DNA from: Nanobdellota archaeon
Lineage (GTDB): Archaea > Nanobdellota > Nanobdellia > Woesearchaeales > UBA9642
Direction of reading: 5' to 3'
DNA length: 56,296 nt
Assembly: GCA_041305085.1 (NCBI GenBank)
Contig: JBFYMA010000021.1
Coordinates: 1-56,296 of the forward strand
Both the position numbers and the translations under genes were made by a program. Below the pieces are notes generated by a model. That model did not search any database and had not been told where the DNA came from. It saw only the letters and a list, made by a program, of their open reading frames with translations. Positions 1-52,499 of this stretch are shown here, one piece after another. Within the stretch, counting starts at the first letter, position 1. Every line of letters starts with the position of its first letter.

Positions 1-114
1 ATTACTGGCATCCCTCTGGGATATTACTGGCTCGCAATCTTGTAAGGCATATTTTTGGAATTGAAGAATTTTGCACTAAAGTGTGGGGTATTAAACCCCT
101 GCGAAATTTTCAAT
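1..114 (+). repeat. Dispersed structured repeat, copy A (5' part cut by window edge)
   Basis: GGCATCCCTCTGGGATATTACTGG..TTTTTGGAATTGAAG aligns by eye with copies C and B. The 3' palindromic module at 60-114 (ATTGAAGAATTTTGCA..GGGGTATTAAACCCC..TGCGAAATTTTCAAT) matches copies D and E. Confidence 0.7.
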
Positions 115-20005: not shown

Positions 20006-21991
20006 ATGGGAGCTTCAGGCACAGACATAGAAGAGATTATCAATCAATACAAAAACAGACCTATGAAAAGGACTGTAAGCAAAGAATTGCCTGACACTAT
20101 GGGTGATTTAGTGATTCAGAGTTTTGTTGGTGCCATAAGCAAATTACAGAAAAATTCTTATGATGCAGGAGCCCATTTTGTAAAAATTAAGTATGTTCCG
20201 GAAAAACTTCTTTGTATCAGTGATGATGGGCGAAGTGTTGTTCCAAAAGAAATTGAAGATGAAGTTCTGTGTATGGGTGAAAGCCACAAGAAAAAGAAAA
20301 AATTTTCTGAAGATGGGCGGGCATATCTTGGAAAGCATGGAATAATGATGATTGCTGTTAAAAAGCTTGCAGAATATCTACAATTTGATGCCAGAAAGAA
20401 CGGAATACATACAATTATTGAAGAAGATTTGAAACTGCCTCTTACTCTTGACAAGGAAATAGTGCCAAAATTAGTTGAAAGATGCAATCCTGAAGAACAC
20501 GGCACCATAATAACTCTCAAAGGTTTGAGATTTTCAGAACAGGATGTAAGTGAAAAAGACCTTATCCAGAGGCTTGAATGGGAAGCCCCTTTAGACCCTG
20601 AAGATTTCAGAGTTTATGTAAATGATAAGGAGGTAAAATCAAAAATTATTGAAAAAGCTATTTCTCCTTTTAGTGTTAATTTTGAAGGCAAACATTGTGG
20701 AAAAGTTGAAGGAATATTATATCTTACCAGCAAACCTGCACAGCATTATGGCATAAGAATAAGAGTTAATAAGGGAGGCATTGGAAGACCTGATGAGCAC
20801 CAGGCACTGTTAACAAAAGGTTTCAAATACGGAACTGGAGGAAAAATTATAGGAACTATTAATGTTGACGGGCTTGATTCTACAATAATATGGGGCAGAG
20901 AAGGATTTGTAAAAGATCATCCTGCATACAGGGAGTTTTTAACTAATGTGAGAGAACATATAAAAGAAATTAATAACTTTGCCAGCAAGTACGAAGAAGA
21001 TACCAGAGAAAAAAGGGTTGGACAGAAAATAGGAGATATATTAAAAAACATAAAAAAAGCCGCGCTCAAGCCAGAAATTCCTGAAGTCAACCAAGAGACA
21101 CAAATTGTTCTTCGGCAGTTGGAAGACAGAAACAACCCAGGAGAATACAAAAAAGAGAGTAATGTGATTATTTTAAACGAGGACTATCCTGGACTAAGGC
21201 ACTTGCCTACAATGACTCTTGCCCAATACGGAAAAATTGTTGAAAATATATTTGTAGATGTTTTGGCAAGGTCAAGGGTCTCGAAGACAAGCAGGGGCAA
21301 ATGGAACAAGTATGAGACAGAAATGGCGCAGTTGTGGGATTTATTGAGAGTACAGCCAATAAAAAAGCCAGGGTCTGTTTTTGGCTATCTTTATCAAAAC
21401 AAAATATACACAATTTCAGAGCTTTCAAAAGTCAAGGGAGTAAATACAGGAACAACAAAATACCTTGTGGATACAGGATTTTTGAAAATTGAAGGTGAAG
21501 GAATAGTGGGCAAAGAGTATCAAGAGAAAGAAAAGCTTTTGAATGGAATGCTTACTTTGTATGATTTTGTGGATGCTCAAGATTTTACTTCGACAGGCAT
21601 GTATGCAGCTCTTGACAGAGCTTTTGAAATTCTTGAGGCTGCAAAAAAAAATATCCGAATAAGCCCGTTTGTAAGGGTATTTGAAAACGGAAAAACTAGT
21701 TGTTACCTGCTGGAAAGCGTCTGTCTAAAAAGATTTACTGAAATGTTTTTCAAAAGCGGGAAAAGAGGCTCTAATCTTAACGAAACAATAATCCAAAGAT
21801 TTGAAGAATTACAGAGCGAGTATGGAACAATGAGCTCTGCAGGGCACAGCGTAGGGCTTTCTGTCTCAAAAGTCTCTTCTGTTGTTGATTATGCAAGAAA
21901 AAACAATCTTCCAATAAGACTAAATGCCAATAAAATAAGTTTTGCAGATTTTATCGCAGCTTTCCAGCACCAAAGAGGCAATAGGTTTTAG
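20006..21991 (+). CDS. Divergent GHKL (MORC/HATPase_c_3-like) ATPase-fold protein with C-terminal HTH-like modules
   Basis: The ordered motifs are KLQKNSYDAGA (NxxDA), ISDDGRS (G1), LGKHGIMMIAV (G2) and GTIITLKGL. The C-terminal half has excisionase/MerR-like HTH patterns (IYTISELSKVKGVNTGTTKYLVDTGFLK). Confidence 0.6.
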   Translation: MGASGTDIEEIINQYKNRPMKRTVSKELPDTMGDLVIQSFVGAISKLQKNSYDAGAHFVKIKYVPEKLLCISDDGRSVVPKEIEDEVLCMGESHKKKKKFSEDGRAYLGKHGIMMIAVKKLAEYLQFDARKNGIHTIIEEDLKLPLTLDKEIVPKLVERCNPEEHGTIITLKGLRFSEQDVSEKDLIQRLEWEAPLDPEDFRVYVNDKEVKSKIIEKAISPFSVNFEGKHCGKVEGILYLTSKPAQHYGIRIRVNKGGIGRPDEHQALLTKGFKYGTGGKIIGTINVDGLDSTIIWGREGFVKDHPAYREFLTNVREHIKEINNFASKYEEDTREKRVGQKIGDILKNIKKAALKPEIPEVNQETQIVLRQLEDRNNPGEYKKESNVIILNEDYPGLRHLPTMTLAQYGKIVENIFVDVLARSRVSKTSRGKWNKYETEMAQLWDLLRVQPIKKPGSVFGYLYQNKIYTISELSKVKGVNTGTTKYLVDTGFLKIEGEGIVGKEYQEKEKLLNGMLTLYDFVDAQDFTSTGMYAALDRAFEILEAAKKNIRISPFVRVFENGKTSCYLLESVCLKRFTEMFFKSGKRGSNLNETIIQRFEELQSEYGTMSSAGHSVGLSVSKVSSVVDYARKNNLPIRLNANKISFADFIAAFQHQRGNRF

Positions 21992-28586: not shown

Positions 28587-28655
28587 AAAAAATCACCCCT
28601 CAGTTATGCTGCAATTCTGGAATTATTAGTATATAAATATTGTGTTTTTAGAGAG

Positions 28656-29375
28656 TCAGCCGGACAATTCCCCTTTTTCTATCTGGACAAAGAAAAACGC
28701 AGTCAGTATTATAGCTATAAACAAAGGAATTATTATAATGAACAGCTTTGTAAACAGCACAAGCACAGAATATGTTAACACAAATATAAACATGAAACAA
28801 TAGACTATTCTCGAGTTTGCAAAAATCTTTATGCCTTCAAATGTTGGTATGGGGAGCACTGAAAAAAATGCCAGCATCACACAAATCATTGTCAGGTATG
28901 AAAAAAGCTCGTTGTCTGTAGAGGAAAAAAGTATCTTGAGTATTATGACAAAAACTATATACACTATTATGCTTGTTATGGCCACTTTTGACATGTCCCT
29001 GTAATTCACTCCCTGGCTGAACCTTTTTCCAAGGCTCGTCCTGGGGTTGTGCTCAAGATTTACTTCTCCTGGAGAAAGCAATGGTATAAGCCCAAAAGAA
29101 AAAAAAGATATTGCGAGAGATATGCCCATTCCAGGAATTGTGTTGGAGAATTTTCCCTCATAGCCGAGCTTTTTTGCAATCTTTTTCTGCAAAAACCTGG
29201 CAAAAAATGTCACTATCCCTGTAAAGAGGACTGTTGTTATAAAAAGTGCTGCACCTGTTGCAAGGTTCAGGTCTGTTGTCCTCCACTTGAAAAAAAAGAA
29301 CACCAGTGAAAGGGAAAGCGTTGTAAGCAGGAATTTTTCAAGCTCCTTTGGCTCAAAGACGGGCTCTTTTGTCAT
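28656..29375 (-). CDS. Multi-pass membrane protein, degenerate site-2 protease (M50)-like
   Basis: ARFLQKKIAKKLG occupies the position of HExxHxxxAxxxG, and VLPIPTFEGIKIF the position of NLLPIPPLDGGKI. The catalytic residues are replaced. Confidence 0.55.
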   Translation of the reverse strand: MTKEPVFEPKELEKFLLTTLSLSLVFFFFKWRTTDLNLATGAALFITTVLFTGIVTFFARFLQKKIAKKLGYEGKFSNTIPGMGISLAISFFSFGLIPLLSPGEVNLEHNPRTSLGKRFSQGVNYRDMSKVAITSIIVYIVFVIILKILFSSTDNELFSYLTMICVMLAFFSVLPIPTFEGIKIFANSRIVYCFMFIFVLTYSVLVLFTKLFIIIIPLFIAIILTAFFFVQIEKGELSG

Positions 29376-29452
29376 TATAGCATATTTATGCTGGTTGTTT
29401 TTATATGTTTTTGTTTTTAGGGGAAATTATTCTTCTTTGTCTTCTCGTATTT

Positions 29453-29553
29453 ATAACAAAAATTTGCCTGATTACTCATGGGCTCGCCCTATCCTCAACC
29501 CAAAAGCAAGGGATTCCTGCTTGGAATTTCTTCTTTCAGTAGAGCTTTTCAAT
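29453..29553 (+). repeat. Dispersed structured repeat, copy G
   Basis: It starts with ATAACAAAAATTTGCCTGATTACTC (compare copies C and E) and ends with TTGGAATTT..GCTTTTCAAT. Confidence 0.65.
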
Positions 29554-29580
29554 AAGTGGAAAAGATTGGTGCTAATGCTT

Positions 29581-30105
29581 TCATTTCACAATCGCCCAGA
29601 CCATATCATTGAGATACTTGCCGTCTTTACATTTGTTTTTTCTCAACACCCCTTCAAGTTTAAATCCTGCTTTTTCCATGACTCTTGCAGACGCTTTGTT
29701 GAAAGTTCTGCACCAGCCTTCAAGCCTTTTTAGTTTGTATTTTTTAAAAGCATATCTTGTTACTATTTTCAAGGCTTTTGTGGCAATGCCTTTTTTTCTG
29801 AACTTTGGATGTATTCCGTAAAATACATTTCCTCTGTGTTCAAAGAATTCTTGGTTAAGTTTATCCACCCCTACCCAACCTGCAAATTTATCACCTACTT
29901 CAATAGCAAAAGTTTCTCCGGTTGGTTTTTTCCCTTTTGATTCTTTTATTTTTTGGATTATTTTCTTTTTTACTTCACCTAATGTTTTCGGGACAGACAT
30001 AAACCCCTTTTTTGTCTTATTATCTTTCCAACATTCAAAATATTCATTTGCATCAGACAGCTTGATAGGTCTTAGTACAAATTCTTTGGATTTTATCATT
30101 TTCAT
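29581..30105 (-). CDS. GNAT family N-acetyltransferase (RimJ/RimL-like)
   Basis: FRKKGIATKALKIVTRYAF (acetyl-CoA motif A) and N.ASARVMEKAGFKLEG. Confidence 0.88.
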   Translation of the reverse strand: MKMIKSKEFVLRPIKLSDANEYFECWKDNKTKKGFMSVPKTLGEVKKKIIQKIKESKGKKPTGETFAIEVGDKFAGWVGVDKLNQEFFEHRGNVFYGIHPKFRKKGIATKALKIVTRYAFKKYKLKRLEGWCRTFNKASARVMEKAGFKLEGVLRKNKCKDGKYLNDMVWAIVK

Positions 30106-30223
30106 TTTTCACACCAATCTCTTTTTGTGAGTTGCATCTTTCATAAATCTCTGTGCTTGTCTTAAATTATCTGCCAATTATTTTGCTAATTTATAAATTG
30201 TTTTGTTTATGATTTTCAGCCCA

Positions 30224-30955
30224 TTAAAGAGTCTCGAACTTTGGGCTTTCAAACATTTTTTCCAGAATTTGGTTCATCCCCTCTTTGTGTCCTGCTCCTA
30301 CAACTGCAAGAATCTTTTTGTCGGGGTTTTTAGATGCCAAAGCATATAGATTTCTTGCCATGTGCTTGTTTCTGTCATGAACCAATACCTTGTAAACTGT
30401 TGGGTAATCCTTTTTGAGCTTTTCCATCACTATTGTTATCAATTCTCGTTCTGGGACCTTGGAAAGGTTTATCCTGAACTCTTGCTTTTTCGAGAAAGGG
30501 CTTAAGAGCAGTTCTTTTACAAACCTGAAGCGCTCTTTCCAAGTAATTTTTTTTAGTCCCTTAAGGGTCTGCTGTATTGGCCTGTCGATAAAGAATATCT
30601 CTGAGTTGTTTTTTCCTGCCAGTTTCACTGCTTCCAGCATCTCACTTCCGGGCTCTATTCCAACAATACTTCCAAGCTTTTTCTGGACAAATCTTCCTAT
30701 GAGTGCGAACAAAAAGCCTGGAAGGCCTATCTGCGGAAGCGCTTTCAGGCTTATGGTCTGCTTTTGCTTTGATGCCAGTGCGTGAAACCTCTGGATGTCC
30801 AATTCAACGCAGACAATGTCCGGAGAATTTACAAAAGCTTTTTTTATCTCATCTATGGACTCTTTTGAAATGTGTGATGTTCCAATGATTGTTATATTCT
30901 CCATTTCTGAAAAGAAAAATTGTTTGTTTTTAAAAGGATTGTTAATTGTTAACAT
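30224..30955 (-). CDS. TraB/PrgY family protein
   Basis: IIGTSHISKESIDEIKK....PDIVCVELD and AVVGAGHKEGM motifs. Confidence 0.8.
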   Translation of the reverse strand: MLTINNPFKNKQFFFSEMENITIIGTSHISKESIDEIKKAFVNSPDIVCVELDIQRFHALASKQKQTISLKALPQIGLPGFLFALIGRFVQKKLGSIVGIEPGSEMLEAVKLAGKNNSEIFFIDRPIQQTLKGLKKITWKERFRFVKELLLSPFSKKQEFRINLSKVPERELITIVMEKLKKDYPTVYKVLVHDRNKHMARNLYALASKNPDKKILAVVGAGHKEGMNQILEKMFESPKFETL

Positions 30956-31050
30956 GGATATTCTTTGCTGCTCGTCAGAGTAAGTCTCTCATGATGGCAC
31001 TCACCTGGCTCTGCCCGGCAAAAACCCTCCAAAGGAGAGCAAACCAAATC

Positions 31051-31645
31051 ATGACAAAGGTGTCTTATTTTTCCAGAGCATGCCCGGCAAACAAAAAAAT
31101 CAACACCCAGTATATTATCTTTCCGGCAGAGTCAGACAGGCAGAAGCTGAACAAAACAAACCTAAAAATACTAAAACTTTTGTCCAGTGATGCACGAATT
31201 CCTATAATAAAAATAGCCTCAGCGGCCAAAATAACAAAAATGCTGCTGCTCAGACTTATCCCAAACCTAAAGGTTAGGGTACAGAGCAACAGATGTTGCA
31301 GGTATCACTCTGTGATATTTCACCTTCGCTAATGGAAGGCACATTTTTGGAATTTAAAATTTAGGATACCAGTACTTCAAAGTGAACTTTCTGCTCAACA
31401 ATGTTGCAAAGGAAAAAGAAAAGCTTTTCAGAGGTTATATAAAATTCCATCCTAACATAATATACGACGACCAGGTGCTTGGAGGAGACGACTTTGAAAT
31501 AGAAGTACAGGCAAAAAATTCAGAGCAGCTGAGAGAAATTCTTCTGGATATAAAAAAAAGGTTCTCTTCAATAATCAAAAGCCAGTCAATAAGCCAATTC
31601 TACAAAGAGCACAAATACTTGTTTATGCTAGAAATAGAATATTAA
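31051..31645 (+). pseudogene. Lrp/AsnC-type regulator split by repeat copy B
   Basis: The N-terminal HTH piece is LNKTNLKILKLLSSDARIPIIKIASAAKITK. The C-terminal piece NLGYQYFKVNFLL..DFEIEVQAKNSEQL is in another frame. Stops are TAA 31330, TGA 31313 and TAA 31355. Confidence 0.6.
31231..31387 (+). repeat. Dispersed structured repeat, copy B (inside the split Lrp/AsnC gene)
   Basis: ATAACAAAAATGCTGCTGCTCAGACTTATCCCAAACCTAAAGGTTAGGGTA is near-identical to the start of copy D. It has the internal CCTTCGCTAATGGAAGG hairpin and a TTTTTGGAATTTAAAATT core. Confidence 0.75.
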
Positions 31646-31673
31646 AAAAGCAGAAAAAATTAAACTCAAAAAT

Positions 31674-32480
31674 CTACACTCTTGCCTGTTTGGCGTTCTG
31701 CCACGAGTCTTGAAACATGTCGTTGAGTGCTTTTGCAAAGTATTTTGTGTTTACCCAGACTGCATAATCATAGCCAGGATGGACTTCTTTGTCATCCATA
31801 AGCATGAACAAGACTTGGTTCTGGTCTGCCATGCAGAACCTTGCATCAATCTTTTCAAGGTTTTTTATCTCTGCAAACTTTTTAAGCTCTTTAAGAGTTT
31901 CTTGGGGCATCTTTGAAATTGGTGCAGCTATCTTTATGCTTACGCCATTATCCTTGGCCTTTTTAAAAGCCTTTTTCAGGTAATCGCTTTTTCTCTGCAA
32001 TCCTTCTTCTGTTGTTACAATAAGCACTTCTTTTTGTGCATTGCTTATCATGTAATCTATGTGATTATATATGCTATCCCTGCTTTTCAATGAGCCGGAA
32101 ACTTCTGAAGGTTCAACCATATCTATGCCTTTTGTGTGGAGCGCTGTAAGGTCTTCAAGAATCTGGCTTTGCTTTACCTCATCAAGGTGCTTTTCCTGGT
32201 TCTCAAGGTCTTGCTTTATCTTTTTCTTTACCCTCTCTATGACTTCTGTTGGAGGTATTGCAATATATTTTATTGGCTTTCCAAGCTTCATCAATATAAA
32301 ACCCTTTTTCTCGAGGCTTTCAAGAATATCATATGCCCTGCTTCTTGGCACATTTGCTATGTCGCTGAGCTCCCCTGCAGAGCTTACTCCCCTGCTAAGA
32401 AGTGCTGTCCATATCTTTGCTTCGTAGCTGTTAAGCCCGAAGTCCTTGAGTTTTTTGATGAAGTTTGGTTGTACAATCAT
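31674..32480 (-). CDS. TrmB family transcriptional regulator
   Basis: FGLNSYEAKIWTALLSRGVSSAGELSDIANVPRSRAYDILESLEKKGF N-terminal wHTH plus a TrmB-like C-domain. Confidence 0.85.
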   Translation of the reverse strand: MIVQPNFIKKLKDFGLNSYEAKIWTALLSRGVSSAGELSDIANVPRSRAYDILESLEKKGFILMKLGKPIKYIAIPPTEVIERVKKKIKQDLENQEKHLDEVKQSQILEDLTALHTKGIDMVEPSEVSGSLKSRDSIYNHIDYMISNAQKEVLIVTTEEGLQRKSDYLKKAFKKAKDNGVSIKIAAPISKMPQETLKELKKFAEIKNLEKIDARFCMADQNQVLFMLMDDKEVHPGYDYAVWVNTKYFAKALNDMFQDSWQNAKQARV

Positions 32481-32616
32481 TTTTTACTCCTCCACAATGA
32501 ATATTATTAACTACAGAAAGAAATTATGATTTATAAACATTTCGTTTTTATATTACTGTGTGGTGGTGAATTTATTTTGTTATAGATATATTATGATAAA
32601 TGTGATTTTTATGAAA

Positions 32617-32823
32617 ATAACAAAAATGCACCTGATTACTGATAGGTTCACCCTGTCCTCTACTTTTAGGTCGAGGTGTAGGGCAATCAAAGATTGCTGG
32701 CATCACTCTGTGATATTACTGACTCACAATCTTCTCAGGCGCATTATTGGAATTGAAAATTTCGACCTGAAGGTAGGTGTATTCAACCAATAAAAATTTC
32801 TCCTTTTAGTCAAAATTTTCAAT
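32617..32823 (+). repeat. Dispersed structured repeat, copy C (longest)
   Basis: It has the ATAACAAAAATGCACCTGATTACTG start, the GGCATCACTCTGTGATATTACTGACTCACAATCTT block shared with copy A, and a TTGGAATTGAAAATTT..GGTGTATTCAACC..AAAATTTTCAAT end shared with copy F. Confidence 0.75.
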
Positions 32824-32832
32824 GAACAAGTG

Positions 32833-32856
32833 ACCCTTTGATTTCCTCTGGAAAAG
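32833..32856 (-). promoter_or_regulatory. Origin recognition box (ORB), inverted orientation
   Basis: The reverse complement CTTTTCCAGAGGAAATCAAAGGGT has the dyad TTCC-N3-GGAA plus a G-string, and is 20/24 identical to the ORB at 33434. Confidence 0.7.
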
Positions 32857-32967
32857 ATTTTGTTGAACCTGATACTACCACACACAACATAGTTTTAATA
32901 ACAAACAAAGTTAATCTGTTATTTTTTAGGCAAGTATTTAGTTTTATTTTTTTAATAATTATAACAT

Positions 32968-33105
32968 ATAACAAAAATGCTGCTGCTCAGGCTTATCCCC
33001 AACCTCAAGGTAGGGGTATTGCGCCTTCGCTAATGAAAGGCGCAATATTGGAATTGAAAATTGCGCACTAAAACGAGGGGTATTCAACCCTGCACAATCT
33101 TCAAT
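32968..33105 (+). repeat. Dispersed structured repeat, copy D
   Basis: It has the ATAACAAAAATGCTGCTGCTCAGG start, a perfect 10-bp hairpin ATTGCGCCTT/AAGGCGCAAT, and the 3' module ATTGAAAATTGCGCA..GGGGTATTCAACCC..TGCACAATCTTCAAT. Confidence 0.75.
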
Positions 33106-33360
33106 AATAATACACATATTATATCACACACCATGTTTAACATATAATTTATTATTAATAATTAAAGATATATATTGTATACTATATAATAAACAAGTAA
33201 TAATAATATAATATAATATAATAACAACAAATTAATTTCAATATAGAAAATTTTTCTTATTTTTTTAATTTTTCATAATTATATTTTATAATATAATATT
33301 TACAATATATAAATAATAAAATATATTTTGTAATTTTATTGAAGTTGTTTTTTATATTGG
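33106..33360. other. AT-rich duplex unwinding element (DUE) of a replication origin
   Basis: About 250 nt that is almost pure A/T with TAATA microrepeats (for example ATAATATAATATAATATAATAA). It is bracketed by inverted ORBs and lies upstream of orc1/cdc6. Confidence 0.65.
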
Positions 33361-33433
33361 AAAGGCTGTTCTGTTGTTTGCTTTTTCTAAAAACTTAAAT
33401 CCTTGCAAGAACATCTCTAACCTTAAAAAAAGA

Positions 33434-33457
33434 GGTTTCCATAGGAAATCAAGGGGT
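33434..33457 (+). promoter_or_regulatory. Origin recognition box (ORB)
   Basis: GGTTTCCATAGGAAATCAAGGGGT has the dyad TTTCC-ATA-GGAAA followed by the GGGGT G-string, which is the classical archaeal ORB layout. Confidence 0.75.
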
Positions 33458-33525
33458 AGTATATGTTTTTAGAATGCTATTTGCAATGAGCTATTTTCCT
33501 TCATATATTTTAAGAACCAAAAATA

Positions 33526-33533
33526 TTTATATA
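33526..33533 (+). promoter_or_regulatory. Putative TATA box of orc1/cdc6
   Basis: TTTATATA lies about 25-30 nt upstream of ATG 33558, which is leaderless-type spacing. Confidence 0.4.
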
Positions 33534-33557
33534 CCTTTGTTTCCTCTGGAAGTGAAA

Positions 33558-34766
33558 ATGGCACAAAACCTTCAAAACTTTTTCGAAAAATTTCTAAAAA
33601 AAGAATCATTATTCCTCAATAAAAAAGCCCTTCAAAGCTCTTATTTTCCAAACGAAATAGATCATAGAGACACCCAGATAAACAAAATAGCAGAAATACT
33701 TGCACCAGCATTAAGGCTGGAAAGGCCATCTAACTTGTTTATTTATGGAAAAACAGGTACAGGAAAAACACTTTCAGTAAAGCATACAATAAATCAGCTT
33801 ATTGAGATGGCTAAAAAACAAAGCATAAGCCTGAAGGCCATATACATAAACTGCAAACTAAAAAAAATTGCAGACACAGAATATAGGCTTATTGCAGAAC
33901 TGGCAAGATTTTTTGGAAAGGCAATACCATCAACCGGCCTACCAACAGACGAAGTCTACAACATTTTTTACAAAGAGCTGGACTCAAAAAAGCAGACAAT
34001 AATACTTGTGCTGGATGAAATAGACCAGCTTGTTAAAAAAGCAGGAGACCAGATAATATACAACCTTACAAGGATAAACCAAGATATGCAGAACGCAGGC
34101 CTTGCAATAGTGGGAATAAGCAATGACTTAACATTTTCTGACAACCTTGATCCCAGAGTAAAGAGTTCATTGAGTGAAGAGGAGCTTGTTTTTCCTCCTT
34201 ACAACGCCCTACAAATACAAGATATACTTCTTAAAAGGTCAAAGACAGCTTTTAAAAAAGAGTCTTTAGAAGATGGAGTAATACAGAAGTGTGCTGCCTA
34301 CGCTGCAAGGGAGCACGGAGATGCAAGAAGGGCGCTTGACTTGCTAAGGGTGGCAGGAGAGCTTGCAGAAAGAAGGGATTCTGAAAAAATTGAAATAAAA
34401 GACCTTGATGAGGCTGAAGAAAAAATTGAAAGAGACCGATTTTTAGATATTGTGGAAACTCAGCCAAAACAGTTCCAGGCAGTCCTGCATTCAATAATGC
34501 TTCTCTCAGAAAGCCAAAAAAACGGATTGTATACAGGGGATGTTTATGAGCTTTATAAAAAAATATGCACAAATACTGCGCTAAGGCCACTCACCCAGAG
34601 AAGGGTTAGTGATGTTATTGCAGAGCTGGACATGCTTGGCATATTAAATGCAAGAGTCATAAGTAAGGGAAGGTACGGAAGAACCAAAGAGCTCAGAATG
34701 GCAATACCCTCTCCAATAATTCCTAAAATAAAAAATATTTTGGAAAAAAACCTGGATTTAAAATGA
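33558..34766 (+). CDS. cdc6: Orc1/Cdc6 replication initiator
   Basis: Walker A YGKTGTGKT, Walker B LVLDEID, GDARRALDLLR (sensor 2), and a C-terminal winged helix. I set the start at MAQNLQ; the tracked 33474 start would run over the promoter. Confidence 0.93.
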   Translation: MAQNLQNFFEKFLKKESLFLNKKALQSSYFPNEIDHRDTQINKIAEILAPALRLERPSNLFIYGKTGTGKTLSVKHTINQLIEMAKKQSISLKAIYINCKLKKIADTEYRLIAELARFFGKAIPSTGLPTDEVYNIFYKELDSKKQTIILVLDEIDQLVKKAGDQIIYNLTRINQDMQNAGLAIVGISNDLTFSDNLDPRVKSSLSEEELVFPPYNALQIQDILLKRSKTAFKKESLEDGVIQKCAAYAAREHGDARRALDLLRVAGELAERRDSEKIEIKDLDEAEEKIERDRFLDIVETQPKQFQAVLHSIMLLSESQKNGLYTGDVYELYKKICTNTALRPLTQRRVSDVIAELDMLGILNARVISKGRYGRTKELRMAIPSPIIPKIKNILEKNLDLK

Positions 34767-41624: not shown

Positions 41625-41840
41625 TTATTCTTTTTTCAGTACACTCCTGGATACATTAACAAAGCTTTTCATACTTTCGTAGAGTTCGTCAAACATCTGC
41701 TGCTCCTGTGGATCAAGCTGGTAGACAGCAACATCGTTGTCAATCTTGTCAAAGATGGTAGTCATTTTGTTGGCATGCATGATCACTTCATAAAGATGCC
41801 TTTTTAAATCCTGTATTCCCTTCTCTACCATAAAAAACAC
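41625..41840 (-). CDS. Hypothetical small helical protein
   Basis: 71-aa ORF with coding-like composition; I recognised no family. Confidence 0.4.
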   Translation of the reverse strand: MFFMVEKGIQDLKRHLYEVIMHANKMTTIFDKIDNDVAVYQLDPQEQQMFDELYESMKSFVNVSRSVLKKE

Positions 41841-41932
41841 CTCAAATATTTGATAAGCTATAAAAAAAATAGTTATTTAAAAAATTTGCGGAATATAGGT
41901 ATTGGTGGCTGGAGAATATGCAAAAAAAATTT

Positions 41933-42131
41933 ATTGAAAATTGAGAATTAAAGTGCTGGGTATTCACCCCTGTGCAATTTTCAATTCTAAGAGATGCCTG
42001 AGCATTTCTTGAACCGAAAATTTTCGATTTCCTTGTTCCAAAAATGCGCATTCCATAAGCAAATGAGCAATAATTCCTCCTTTAGGCAGGGACATGGTAA
42101 GCATATGATTACTCAGGCGAATTTTTGTTAT
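41933..42131 (-). repeat. Dispersed structured repeat, copy E (3' module loop inverted relative to 5' part)
   Basis: On the minus strand it starts ATAACAAAAATTCGCCTGAGTAATC. The module at 41933-41985 reads ATTGAAAATTGAGAATTAAAGTGCTGGGTATTCACCCCTGTGCAATTTTCAAT on the plus strand. Confidence 0.7.
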
Positions 42132-44528: not shown

Positions 44529-44594
44529 AATCTGTCAAATGCTTTTTTTGCTATATTTTTTTTATTGACTCAAAGTAGAATATGCCCTTTTTTG

Positions 44595-44745
44595 CGATTT
44601 TCAAAAATTTTTGTTATTGAAAATTTTGACTAAACAGAGAAATTTCTATGAGTTGAATACCTAGACATTTAGGCCTAGCAAAAATAATCGCCAAAGAAAT
44701 AGATAAGAACCTTCCGCTTACTGAGAGTGATTACTAAGTTTTTAA
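44595..44745 (-). repeat. Dispersed structured repeat, copy F, with a second 5'-boundary motif abutting its 3' end
   Basis: The minus strand reads ..CTAGGTATTCAACTCATAGAAATTTCTCTGTTTAGTCAAAATTTTCAAT, directly followed by AACAAAAAT (44607-44617). Its 3' half matches copy C. Confidence 0.65.
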
Positions 44746-44796
44746 AAGTACAAAAGCAAATAAGTTTATAAAAGCAGCAAAATTCAACAACTTTCT

Positions 44797-46058: not shown

Positions 46059-46215
46059 AAGTATCGCCTGTTAACATTTTTGGTGTGTTTTTAGATTAAG
46101 CAATATAAAAAACTTGCGTTTTGTGCCCTTGAATAGTGAGAAAAAATTAATTTATTGAAAACTGTGTTATAACAAAAAAGAATTATTTATAAACAAGAAT
46201 TTTTTTCTGTCAACC

Positions 46216-51515: not shown

Positions 51516-52499
51516 TTATTTACTAAGTTTAAGCAAATTCTTAAATCCTGGAGTCCACTCATCCGTTATCATCAACACAGAATCTACAGTCCTTATCACA
51601 AAAGGGAATTCTTTTTTTAGATTTTCAATTATTTCATAATATTCTTGATAACTGCTTACAACTATTTCCGGTTCTATCTGCCATATATTTCTGATGTAGT
51701 AATGGATATTTGGTATATTAGACAAATATGTCAGAAATTTTGATTCATCTTCTTTGGTGTATTTGTCTAGTTTGATTATTGCCTTATACAGTTCTAATCC
51801 GATCACATTAAGATTGATTCCTATTCTATACTGGATAATTATGCCTTTCTGCTCTAATTTCTTTAGTTTGCCCCTTACAATTATTGCTGTTGAATTGACT
51901 TTTTTTGCAAGCTCGTTTATTGGCATTCTTGCATTGTTTACTATCTCTCCTAAAATAGAATAATCTAGTTCGTCCAATTCGTTGTTGACTACCTCTCCTG
52001 CAAACATCGTTGGAGGTACAATCTCATTTGTAAAATACATTTTTGCGTATTGTTTTACATCTATCAAGCTATCTCCATATTCTTGAGTGATTATTCTTTG
52101 GAAGTTTGACAATATCTCATTTTTAAGTTTGTAAAATTCGTAGTCATTTCTTGAAAAAACTCCAAAAATCAGATCCCATGAACCAGAACACTCTCCCATC
52201 CAATAGACAATTCCTGCTGATTTCAGATAATTGAATAATTTTTGTTTCTCTTCAGGGATATTTCTAAGTTTGAGATAAATCTTGTATATTTTGTATCCCA
52301 TCTTATGCGGATTAAAAGAAGCATTAAAGCTTGTTATCACTCCTCTTTTTTCTAATTGACTGATTCTATATTCTACAGCTTGTCTTGATTTCATGACTTT
52401 TTTAGCTAAGACTGTGGTGGGAATTCGACAGTTTTTATCTAGTTCTGCAAGTATCTTTCTGTCTGTTTTATCTAGCTTAATCTTGGTTATTTCTATCAT
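51516..52499 (-). CDS. Tandem (double) Lrp/AsnC-type transcriptional regulator
   Basis: Two HTH units (LDKTDRKILAELDKNCRIPTTVLAKKV..; LDELDYSILGEIVNNARMPINELAKKV..), each followed by an Lrp-like ligand domain. Confidence 0.85.
   Translation of the reverse strand: MIEITKIKLDKTDRKILAELDKNCRIPTTVLAKKVMKSRQAVEYRISQLEKRGVITSFNASFNPHKMGYKIYKIYLKLRNIPEEKQKLFNYLKSAGIVYWMGECSGSWDLIFGVFSRNDYEFYKLKNEILSNFQRIITQEYGDSLIDVKQYAKMYFTNEIVPPTMFAGEVVNNELDELDYSILGEIVNNARMPINELAKKVNSTAIIVRGKLKKLEQKGIIIQYRIGINLNVIGLELYKAIIKLDKYTKEDESKFLTYLSNIPNIHYYIRNIWQIEPEIVVSSYQEYYEIIENLKKEFPFVIRTVDSVLMITDEWTPGFKNLLKLSK

What the first reader, a model, noticed from the sequence alone, without database searches (positions are those of the whole stretch)
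32617..33105. Seven-copy family of structured 100-200-nt repeats with pairing-preserving variation and a quasi-palindromic 53-nt end module
The copies are at 1-114(+, cut), 29453-29553(+), 31231-31387(+), 32617-32823(+), 32968-33105(+), 41933-42131(-) and 44595-44745(-). The five copies with a readable 5' end (B, C, D, E, G) share a sharp 5' boundary (A)ATAACAAAAAT; copy A is cut by the window edge and copy F starts differently. Behind the boundary a nested hairpin is kept although its sequence differs. In D it is CCCC-aa-CCT-ca-AGG-ta-GGGG. In B it is CCC-aaa-CCT-aa-AGG-tta-GGG. In C it is CCCT-gt-CCTC...GAGG-tgt-AGGG. In E it is TCC-ctg-CCT-aa-AGG-a-GGA. B and D add a second hairpin: CCTTC-gctaatg-GAAGG in B, and a perfect 10-bp ATTGCGCCTT/AAGGCGCAAT in D. 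Copies A, D and E end in a ~53-nt module, ATTGAAAATTG..GGGGTATTCAACCC..CAATTTTCAAT; C and F carry a longer variant and B a degenerate one. Its arms are inverted repeats (11/11 bp in copy E) around a GGG(G)-TATTCAA-CCC(C) mini-hairpin. In copy E the loop of this module is flipped relative to the 5' part. In copy F the 3' end abuts a second boundary motif (TTTTCAAT|AACAAAAAT, 44607-44617), like a head-to-tail junction. The copies lie in either orientation relative to neighbouring genes. One lies inside a gene and two lie beside the origin ORBs. The window encodes no transposase, RT or Cas protein. Conserved pairing with divergent sequence points to a structured RNA or a protein-recognised DNA hairpin, such as a MITE-like element or a recombination or inversion substrate, rather than duplication debris.
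Basis: seen in the sequence. Interest (0 to 1): 0.65.

Follow-up and report, generated by a model that had tools for sequence, protein, structure and literature searches.

The report
Hairpin mini-transposons flanking an archaeal origin
The repeats are real copies of a small gene-less mobile DNA element in a tiny DPANN archaeon; each follows the word TTAT and their direction flips at the replication origin, as expected of elements copied as single-stranded DNA at the replication fork, not of an RNA gene.

Summary
I found an eighth, a 52-nt ends-only copy. The family is mosaic, 52-207 nt long, 65-90% identical and non-coding.

- TTAT precedes six of the seven intact left ends; the seventh has TCAT.
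- All six intact right ends finish in TTAT, and the flanks beyond are unrelated.
- One copy sits exactly behind the terminal TTAT of another.
- All five copies left of the ORB/cdc6 origin put this strand on the minus strand. All three to the right put it on the plus strand. It is therefore always on the lagging-strand template, whatever the direction of neighbouring genes.
- A hairpin domain abuts each end.
- The "intragenic" copy replaces 29 codons of a dead Lrp-like gene.

The best reading (about 0.55) is a PATE-like non-autonomous element of the IS200/IS605 type, moved in trans by a Y1 transposase. No evidence supports an RNA gene. This is a new member of a known kind and of moderate interest.

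The parts
1..112 (-). Its right-end part is lost at the contig start. It keeps the left-end hairpin module. TTAT (plus-strand ATAA, 113-116) precedes it on the minus strand.
29453..29551 (-). It is a short degenerate copy between the GNAT stop and the start of a 239-aa gene. The right end ATTTTTGTTAT is intact. TTAT flank at 29552-29555.
   Evidence: not significantly structured
31231..31357 (-). The right end is intact and the left-end hairpin module is missing. It replaces 29 codons of an Lrp/AsnC-like pseudogene (31051-31230 plus 31358-31645).
32617..32821 (-). Full-length long variant, 10 nt from the left ORB. Its flank is TCAT (32822-32825). A 13/15-bp long-range stem closes the right-end domain.
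32968..33103 (-). Full-length and the best-structured copy. It lies between the left ORB and the AT-rich unwinding region. TTAT flank at 33104-33107.
   Evidence: ssDNA z = -5.95
41935..42131 (+). Full-length, with the interior of the left-end hairpin inverted relative to the other copies. TTAT flank at 41931-41934. Its right end lies 13 nt from the stop of the OmdA-like gene.
   Evidence: (D1)
44618..44749 (+). Long-variant left end with a decayed right end. It is inserted exactly 3' of the terminal TTAT of copy 8.
44566..44617 (+). Copy 8 (new). A 52-nt ends-only element, TTAT|TGACTC...CAAAAATTTTTGTTAT|. TTAT flank at 44562-44565.
32833..33457 (.). Replication origin. It has inverted ORB boxes at 32833-32867 and 33423-33457 around an AT-rich region of about 220 nt (33106-33330), upstream of cdc6/orc1 (probable start 33558). 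The cumulative GC-skew minimum falls here. Element orientation switches here.
   Evidence: (I13)

Best explanation
The repeats are a lineage-specific family of non-autonomous, hairpin-ended mobile DNA elements of the IS200/IS605 ('peel-and-paste') type. That makes them PATE-like elements.

On its active strand an element reads TTAT | left-end hairpin | TCC | right-end hairpin domain ending in TTAT |.
- The left-end hairpin has arms ATTGAAAATTG/CAATTTTCAAT and a loop that carries a GGGTTGAATACCC mini-hairpin.
- The right-end domain is closed by CAAWAATGCGCCTGA/TCAGGYGCATTTTTG and holds a variable set of inner hairpins.

Inferred mechanism. A Y1 HUH transposase encoded elsewhere binds the folded ends on single-stranded DNA exposed on the lagging-strand template. 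It excises the strand as a circle and pastes it 3' of a TTAT, with no target duplication. Because every element ends in TTAT, it creates a new target, which gives tandem and nested copies.

Later decay explains the mosaic. This decay includes core deletions, loss of an end, template-switch inversion of a hairpin interior and exchange of modules.

Shown here: the boundaries, the TTAT rule, the tandem junction, the replication-linked orientation, the hairpins, the gene disruption, and the absence of the copies from a relative's origin.

Inferred only: the enzyme, the single-strand intermediate, and any present-day activity.
For: 1. The ends are sharp and unlike each other, TGAAAAT... and ...ATTTTTGTTAT, and the flanks are unrelated. 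The six exact ATAACAAAAAT 11-mers in the window all lie at element ends.
2. TTAT lies immediately 5' of the left end in 6 of 7 copies, with TCAT in the seventh. Even if the AT is counted as element sequence, TT in front of it has a background probability of 0.11, which gives p about 1e-5. All six intact right ends finish in TTAT.
3. TTAT always has the same polarity relative to the element. A duplicated target of a double-strand transposon would show no such rule.
4. Copy 7 starts exactly after the terminal TTAT of the 52-nt copy 8.
5. Orientation follows replication. The five copies left of the ORB/cdc6 origin have the active strand on the minus strand, and the three copies to the right have it on the plus strand. 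[quoted passage not shown] Local transcription does not explain this. The active strand is sense to the neighbouring genes for copies 1 and 2 and antisense for copies 3 and 6.
6. Hairpins abut both ends. For copy 5 as ssDNA, z = -5.95.
7. A 52-nt ends-only derivative exists. Terminal-only 52-bp PATEs are described in Haloquadratum (PMC3119063).
8. Copy 3 interrupts an Lrp-like gene at ...AAK|. An intact orthologue reads AAA|ATA ACA CCA at that point, so the predicted ATAA/TTAT target is present.
9. A relative with 75% identical Cdc6 has the same TraB-TrmB-ORB-cdc6 layout without copies 4 and 5.
10. Published rules fit. The IS608 left end inserts 3' of a tetranucleotide and targets the lagging-strand template (PMC5027513). 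PATEs have no terminal inverted repeats, carry near-terminal palindromes and make no duplication (PMC3119063). TTAT is the adjacent motif of the IS200/IS605 element ISDge10 (PMC11589281).
Against: - No Y1 transposase or TnpB was found in the 56-kb contig. About 40 ORFs were scanned against Pfam. Earlier notes on a second contig mention only an IS5-like DDE element.
- The flanking word and the element's last four bases are both TTAT. Sequence alone therefore cannot exclude a 4-bp target duplication.
- No exact empty site was obtained, and no two copies are more than 90% identical. There is thus no sign of recent movement.
- The left-end hairpin begins at the cleavage point, whereas IS608 has a spacer of about 19 nt.
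- The family was not found in any other genome: not in the relatives' loci, the plasmid and phage collections, or the collection scans with 5'-end patterns (the module pattern was run on viral contigs only).
- The orientation statistic rests on seven events in one contig.
Confidence: 0.55

Rival explanations
1. It would duplicate a preferred 4-bp target, TTAT.
For: TTAT flanks both sides of the elements, which is formally what a 4-bp duplication looks like. After removing TTAT, the extreme ends TGAAAAT and CAAAAAT (the reverse complement of the other end) agree at 5 of 7 positions. A DDE transposase exists in the genome according to note e1-1265408, which I did not check.
Against: Beyond those 5 bases the ends do not match: 8/15 for copy 5 and 6/15 for copy 4 by direct reading. 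There is therefore no real terminal inverted repeat. TTAT is not palindromic, yet it always has the same polarity relative to the element (6 of 6). The strict link between orientation and replication direction (7 of 7) has no explanation under double-strand transposition. The 4-bp duplications I recall for IS5-group elements have the form YTAR, which TTAT does not fit; that is from memory and was not checked.
Confidence: 0.12
2. A REP/REPIN/BIME-like system. The hairpin modules would be maintained vertically and copied by a single domesticated Y1 (RAYT-like) enzyme, possibly with a host role such as transcript ends, protein binding sites or origin architecture.
For: The make-up is modular and mosaic like BIME and BOX repeats. 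The copies are old and divergent, with hand-read compensatory pairs. The location is mostly intergenic. Four copies lie within 4 kb of the origin and two flank an ORB. The same single-strand chemistry would give the same TTAT and orientation rules.
Against: No GT[AG]G foot and no inverted doublets of one unit are present. The units are 50-200 nt, not 20-40 nt. One copy destroys a gene. RAYT-type enzymes are described only in bacteria in the survey I read (PMC6006769). No such gene lies in the contig.
Confidence: 0.15
3. A family of structured small RNA genes, or RNA elements acting within transcripts. One version is an omega-RNA-like scaffold carried by the right-end domain for a TnpB nuclease acting in trans.
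For: Several copies fold well: z = -3 to -4.7 as RNA. A few compensatory pairs can be read by hand. Published PATEs often carry omega RNAs (PMC10055086). The right-end domain of about 85-150 nt is of a comparable size.
Against: Rfam gives no hit at the gathering threshold or at E <= 1. RNAalifold finds no supported covariation. The two strands fold about equally: summed energies of -250 and -261 kcal/mol. The flanks are unrelated, so there is no shared external promoter. Two copies are unstructured. Copies are truncated, nested and mosaic. On the strand that would carry a guide, a T5 run sits 6 nt before the boundary, and from general knowledge that run should terminate archaeal transcription. 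Compensatory changes in DNA palindromes can also arise by template switching.
Confidence: 0.08
4. Substrates of a site-specific recombinase or invertase, that is, a switch in which the 53-nt module is flipped on purpose.
For: The interior of the left-end hairpin is inverted in one copy of five, between 11-bp inverted arms.
Against: No recombinase gene is present in the contig. Only one flipped copy was seen. The module has no coding or promoter content to switch. Replication template switching in a quasi-palindrome produces the same outcome.
Confidence: 0.04

Closest known systems
PATEs (palindrome-associated transposable elements) of Haloquadratum walsbyi and other gene-less IS200/IS605 derivatives (PMC3119063; PATE-like elements of Geobacillus, PMC10055086)
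   Same: They are too short to code, lack terminal inverted repeats, and carry palindromes at or near both ends. A short fixed word lies at the left boundary and a conserved terminal oligonucleotide at the right. The families are heterogeneous and mosaic. Core-deleted ends-only versions of about 52 nt exist, and copies nest in one another.
   Different: No full-length parent element or Y1 transposase has been seen for this family. The left hairpin starts at the boundary itself. The adjacent and terminal words are identical (TTAT). The host is a DPANN (Woesearchaeota-type) archaeon, for which I found no published description of such elements. The nearest is a MITE census that notes a high MITE density in one Woesearchaeal genome (PMC11602168).
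IS608 / ISDra2 (IS200/IS605 family, Y1 HUH TnpA)
   Same: The left end lies 3' of a specific tetranucleotide, and the active strand is on the lagging-strand template (PMC5027513). The ends are hairpins, and no inverted repeats are present. TTAT is a known adjacent motif in the family (ISDge10, PMC11589281).
   Different: These are autonomous elements of 1.3-1.8 kb with tnpA and tnpB. Their flanking and terminal words differ from each other (TTAC and TCAA in IS608, from memory), and their hairpins are subterminal.
REP / BIME / REPIN elements with RAYT transposases (bacteria)
   Same: They are dispersed intergenic hairpin modules that combine into mosaics, with a tetranucleotide at the foot of a hairpin and presumed single-strand processing by a Y1 enzyme.
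   Different: The REP foot is GT[AG]G. The units are 20-40 nt and come as inverted doublets. They are described in bacteria only. Here the two ends differ and are directly, not inversely, tagged with TTAT.
SMR-A small mobile repeats of Haloquadratum (PMC3119063)
   Same: The 53-nt module has prominent inverted arms, shows no duplication, and sits in the terminal palindrome region of a PATE-like element, in either orientation.
   Different: No solo copy of the module was found in the window. It is more simply read as the left-end hairpin itself.

Membership tests
PATE / non-autonomous IS200/IS605-type element | Too short to encode a transposase; non-coding | tested here: met
   The copies are 52-207 nt and differ by indels, and no ORF is shared among them.
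PATE / non-autonomous IS200/IS605-type element | No terminal inverted repeats at the extreme ends | tested here: met
   The ends are TGAAAAT... and ...ATTTTTGTTAT. Only 5 of 7 bases agree after removing TTAT, and 6-8 of 15 further in (direct reading).
PATE / non-autonomous IS200/IS605-type element | Palindromes or hairpins at or near both ends | tested here: met
   The left-end hairpin has 11-15 bp arms. The right-end domain is closed by a 13/15-bp stem in copy 4 and a 10/11-bp stem in copy 6, ending directly at TTAT. Copies 2 and 8 are degenerate.
PATE / non-autonomous IS200/IS605-type element | Left end inserted 3' of a fixed tetra- or pentanucleotide, with no target duplication | tested here: inconclusive
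   TTAT precedes 6 of 7 left ends (p about 1e-5), and the target is present at the orthologous gene site. Because the element also ends in TTAT, a 4-bp duplication cannot be excluded from sequence.
PATE / non-autonomous IS200/IS605-type element | Active strand preferentially on the lagging-strand template | tested here: met
   All 8 copies (7 independent events) switch strand at the ORB/cdc6 origin. One contig only.
PATE / non-autonomous IS200/IS605-type element | Ends shared with a full-length element that encodes a Y1 HUH TnpA in the same or a related genome | not testable with these tools
   None was found in the contig.
PATE / non-autonomous IS200/IS605-type element | Demonstrated mobility (strain-specific insertions with exact empty sites) | tested here: inconclusive
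   Relative L112 lacks copies 4 and 5 at the origin, and one gene is disrupted. The flanks are too diverged for a base-exact empty site.
Classical MITE (DDE transposase) | Terminal inverted repeats matching those of a resident transposon | tested here: not met
   No terminal inverted repeat extends beyond 5 bases. The IS5-like element on the other contig could not be read.
Classical MITE (DDE transposase) | Target-site duplication | tested here: inconclusive
   TTAT is present on both sides, but always in one polarity relative to the element. Copy 4 has TCAT against TTAT.
REP/REPIN with RAYT | Short (20-40 nt) palindromic unit with a GT[AG]G foot, usually as inverted doublets | tested here: not met
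   The foot word is TTAT, the units are 50-200 nt, and the two end domains are not inverted copies of each other.
Known structured RNA family (Rfam), including transposon-associated RNAs | Covariance-model match | tested here: not met
   There are 0 hits at the gathering threshold over the window. At E <= 1 over the copies there is nothing except a chance miRNA-hairpin hit at 24.7 bits against a gathering score of 90.
Known structured RNA family (Rfam), including transposon-associated RNAs | Statistically supported covariation and a discrete transcript | tested here: inconclusive
   RNAalifold found 0 pairs with compensatory support in 4-5 sequences. Three compensatory pairs can be read by hand. 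Transcripts could not be tested.

The most novel reading that the evidence does not exclude
This may be a single-strand ('peel-and-paste') transposon family that is coupled to the archaeal replication fork. The orientation of its copies would then mark replication direction and origin position in an uncultured DPANN archaeon. The family may persist with no resident transposase in a genome of about 1 Mb, or be served by a single domesticated Y1 enzyme, which would make it the archaeal counterpart of REPIN-RAYT systems. A bolder variant is that the right-end domain is an omega-RNA scaffold used in trans by a TnpB with a TTAT adjacent motif.
Probability: 0.2. Interest if true: 0.65.

Novelty: new member of a known kind. 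Interest (0 to 1): 0.4.

Why it matters
DPANN archaea have some of the smallest cellular genomes, yet about 1.9% of this contig is selfish hairpin DNA, including two copies inside the replication origin.

If the single-strand reading is right, three things follow:
- The lagging-strand coupling shown for bacterial IS608 and ISDra2 would extend to an archaeal (PCNA/PolD) fork.
- Copy orientation would give a cheap in-silico marker of origins and replichores in metagenome-assembled archaeal genomes.
- It would help explain why assemblies of these organisms break where they do. This contig ends inside a copy. No copy was seen at the contig ends that relatives show upstream of cdc6.

The result also warns annotators not to call such repeats small RNA genes. 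The split Lrp gene here is dead and is not an intron-bearing gene.

Tried and rejected
- Genome-contig scan with a degenerate 5'-end pattern.
- Metagenome-contig scan with ATAACAAAAATNNNCCTGAKTAMT. Five hits, all chance, with no similarity beyond the pattern.
- Viral-contig scans. No hits, or an unrelated phage gene.
- Plasmid and phage collections in distant mode. No match.
- The look-up of encoding contigs for the window's own proteins. Not on record.
- Relatives' cdc6 loci L109-L112. No copy found. Three of these contigs are too short to be informative.
- Sequencing-run tools.
- Strand choice from folding energy or G-T asymmetry. No clear difference between strands.
- RNAalifold on the left-end modules and on hairpin 1. 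The alignments of mosaic copies are poor and no covariation was supported. I also gave slightly wrong coordinates for one sequence.
- The idea that the repeat 'reads like the missing gene segment', or derives from the Lrp gene (note e1-4348883). Local alignments of all copies to two orthologous genes score at chance level (z between -0.7 and 0.7). Rejected.
- An intron reading of the intragenic copy. Rejected because 29 codons of the gene are missing and the gene is also truncated at its N-terminus.
- Weak BLAST hits at 1476-1500 and 20660-20686. These are coding sequence, not copies.
- Similarity of the module to CRISPR repeat ends (ATTGAAA) and to tRNA arms. Considered from memory only, with nothing to support it. 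ARAGORN found no tRNA.
Full report
**Setting**

The window is a complete 56,296-bp contig: the window's own Cdc6 is listed with a longest contig of 56,296. It comes from a Woesearchaeota-type DPANN archaeon, since the Cdc6 homologues are named Woesearchaeota or Nanoarchaeota.

The contig carries a replication origin. Two inverted ORB boxes lie at 32833-32867 and 33423-33457 (pair I13). They bracket an AT-rich stretch at 33106-33330, upstream of cdc6/orc1 and the PolD subunits. The cumulative GC-skew minimum falls at 32-34 kb. Relatives keep the same ORB motif in front of cdc6.

Yes. Pairwise blastn-short E-values are 1e-5 to 1e-19, and there are no comparable hits elsewhere in the window.

With that key, all the quoted hairpins, the 11/11 arms and the flipped module are correct.

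The family is a mosaic:
- There are two types of 5' region. The copies at 29453, 32617 and 42131 share one type, and 31231 and 32968 share the other (90% over 51 nt).
- The inner hairpins are optional.
- The 3' module comes in a short form (copies at 1, 32968 and 41933), a long form (32617 and 44618) and a degenerate form (29453).

Together the copies make up about 1.08 kb, or 1.9% of the contig.

**The boundaries read on the other strand**

- TTAT lies immediately 5' of this left end in the copies at 1, 29453, 32968, 41935, 44618 and 44566. The copy at 32617 has TCAT. The copy at 31231 has lost this end.
- Even if the AT is treated as part of the element, TT in front of it has a background probability of 0.11, so 6 of 7 gives p about 1e-5.
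- All six intact right ends finish in ...ATTTTTGTTAT. The six exact occurrences of its complement in the window are exactly these ends.
- Beyond TTAT on the left and beyond the last T on the right, the flanks are unrelated.

It is a 52-nt ends-only element at 44566-44617, itself preceded by TTAT. The copy at 44618 sits exactly 3' of its terminal TTAT. So the element carries, at its own end, the word behind which the family lies. That accounts for tandem insertion.

**Architecture**

On the active strand the layout is TTAT | left hairpin | TCC | right-end domain ending directly at TTAT |.
- The left hairpin has arms of 11-15 bp and a loop with a GGGTTGAATACCC mini-hairpin.
- The right-end domain is closed by a long-range stem. 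It is 13/15 bp in the 32617 copy, 10/11 in 42131, 8/11 in 31231 and 7/11 in 32968 (direct reading, supported by the folds).
- The best copy folds as ssDNA with z = -5.95. The short copies at 29453 and 44566 are not significantly structured.
- Neither strand is clearly favoured energetically.

Three compensatory pairs can be read by hand: C-G to T-A in hairpin 1 of two copies; ATCCC/GGGAT against ATCAC/GTGAT; and G-C to T-A in the mini-hairpin. RNAalifold finds no supported covariation in the few, poorly alignable sequences. Palindromes can also self-correct by template switching, so this is not evidence for RNA.

The interior of the left hairpin is inverted in one copy (family D1). The simplest cause is a template switch between the 11-bp arms.

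**Orientation**

The active strand is on the minus strand for all five copies left of the origin. It is on the plus strand for all three copies on the right. In both replichores that is the lagging-strand template.

Copies 7 and 8 count as one event, which leaves 7 of 7 in the predicted direction (one-sided p = 1/128).

Local transcription does not explain the pattern:
- The active strand is sense to the flanking genes for the copies at 1 and 29453.
- It is antisense for the copy in the Lrp remnant and for the copy at 41935.
- The other copies lie between divergent genes.

**The 'intragenic' copy**

Orthologues show that 29 codons (ITPKTVASRIKELEKKKVIIGYRTMFDLEK) are missing between ...IASAAK and LGYQYFK... 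and are replaced by the 127-nt copy. The gene also lacks its N-terminal half. It is a pseudogene, not a gene with an intron or an in-frame insert.

At the junction an intact orthologue reads AAA|ATA ACA CCA, so the predicted ATAA/TTAT target is present there.

This is not supported, because copy-to-gene alignments score at chance level.

**Relatives and databases**

A relative with 75% identical Cdc6 has TraB-TrmB-ORB-DUE-ORB-cdc6 without the two origin copies, the GNAT gene or the Lrp remnant. Closer relatives (84-89% identity) are on short contigs that break just upstream of cdc6.

Nothing related was found elsewhere:
- Rfam;
- the plasmid and phage collections;
- viral contigs;

My genome contigs pattern was too loose and returned only chance hits.

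No transposase domain occurs in about 40 ORFs of the contig.

**Interpretation**

Several features together match the published rules for IS200/IS605 single-strand transposition and its gene-less derivatives, the PATEs (PMC5027513, PMC3119063, PMC10055086):
- a fixed word 5' of one end, always in the same polarity;
- unlike ends with no terminal inverted repeats;
- hairpins at both ends;
- tandem insertion behind the element's own terminal word;
- a 52-nt ends-only derivative;
- the active strand on the lagging-strand template.

TTAT is a documented adjacent motif in that family (PMC11589281).

I therefore read the repeats as a PATE-like family moved in trans by a Y1 transposase, with confidence about 0.55.

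The main weaknesses are these. The enzyme is unseen. The adjacent and terminal words are identical, so a 4-bp duplication cannot be excluded from sequence. There is no exact empty site. The copies are old, at 65-90% identity.

The rivals, with their confidences, are:
- a DDE-type MITE (0.12), disfavoured by the lack of inverted repeats, the fixed polarity of TTAT and the replication-linked orientation;
- a REP/RAYT-like domesticated system (0.15), which would use the same chemistry but has a different anatomy;
- an RNA gene or omega-RNA scaffold (0.08), for which there is no positive evidence and against which a T5 run sits 6 nt before the boundary;
- an invertase substrate (0.04).

**Novelty**

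I found no published description of IS200/IS605-type gene-less elements in DPANN archaea. The closest is a MITE census that notes a very high MITE density in one Woesearchaeal genome (PMC11602168).

Earlier unchecked notes of this scan describe similar hairpin repeats in this and other Woesearchaeota genomes. One of them gave me the TTAT lead, which I tested here.

The kind of element is known, the family is new, and the origin-centred switch of orientation is the most useful new point.

Noticed in passing
window 46140-46185: The plus strand reads ...AATTTAT|TGAAAACTGTGTTAT|AACAAAAAAG. This is a 15-nt stretch that starts like the family's left end, ends in GTTAT and is preceded by TTAT. It is on the strand predicted for the right replichore. 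It could be an extreme ends-only remnant or chance in AT-rich DNA.
   Followed up: partly
window 31051-31645: An Lrp/AsnC-like gene is a pseudogene. Its N-terminal half is absent, because orthologues continue more than 80 residues upstream, and 29 codons of the HTH region are replaced by a repeat copy. An intact two-unit paralogue lies at 51516-52499.
   Followed up: yes
window 1-114 and loci L109-L111: The contig starts inside a repeat copy. Three relatives' contigs break 205-489 nt upstream of cdc6, in or next to the origin region. Repeats may limit assembly in this lineage.
   Followed up: partly
window 28600-32500 against L112 6900-9400: The region left of the origin is variable. The relative has the 239-aa gene, TraB and TrmB back to back. 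The window has in addition a GNAT acetyltransferase, the Lrp remnant and three repeat copies.
   Followed up: partly
window 33474-34766: The longest cdc6/orc1 ORF (430 aa) is probably too long. All close homologues are about 402 aa and cover 93% of it, so the start is near 33558, just after a conserved TTTGTTTCCTCTGGAA motif.
   Followed up: partly
window 41640-41830 (minus strand): An unlisted ORF of about 63 aa (MVEKGIQDLKRHLYEV...) lies between the acylphosphatase gene and the repeat copy at 41935. It is below the ORF-list cut-off I used.
   Followed up: no
window 33233-33256; L110 140-160; L112 about 9530 and 9695: A short motif, TTTCAATATAGAAAAT, recurs inside the AT-rich origin region of the window and of two relatives. 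It may be an origin-specific element besides the ORBs.
   Followed up: no
window 29400-33110: Four of the eight copies lie within 3.7 kb on the left side of the unwinding region, and one abuts it. This may be an insertion hot spot where DNA is often single-stranded, or simply the most intergenic part of the contig.
   Followed up: no
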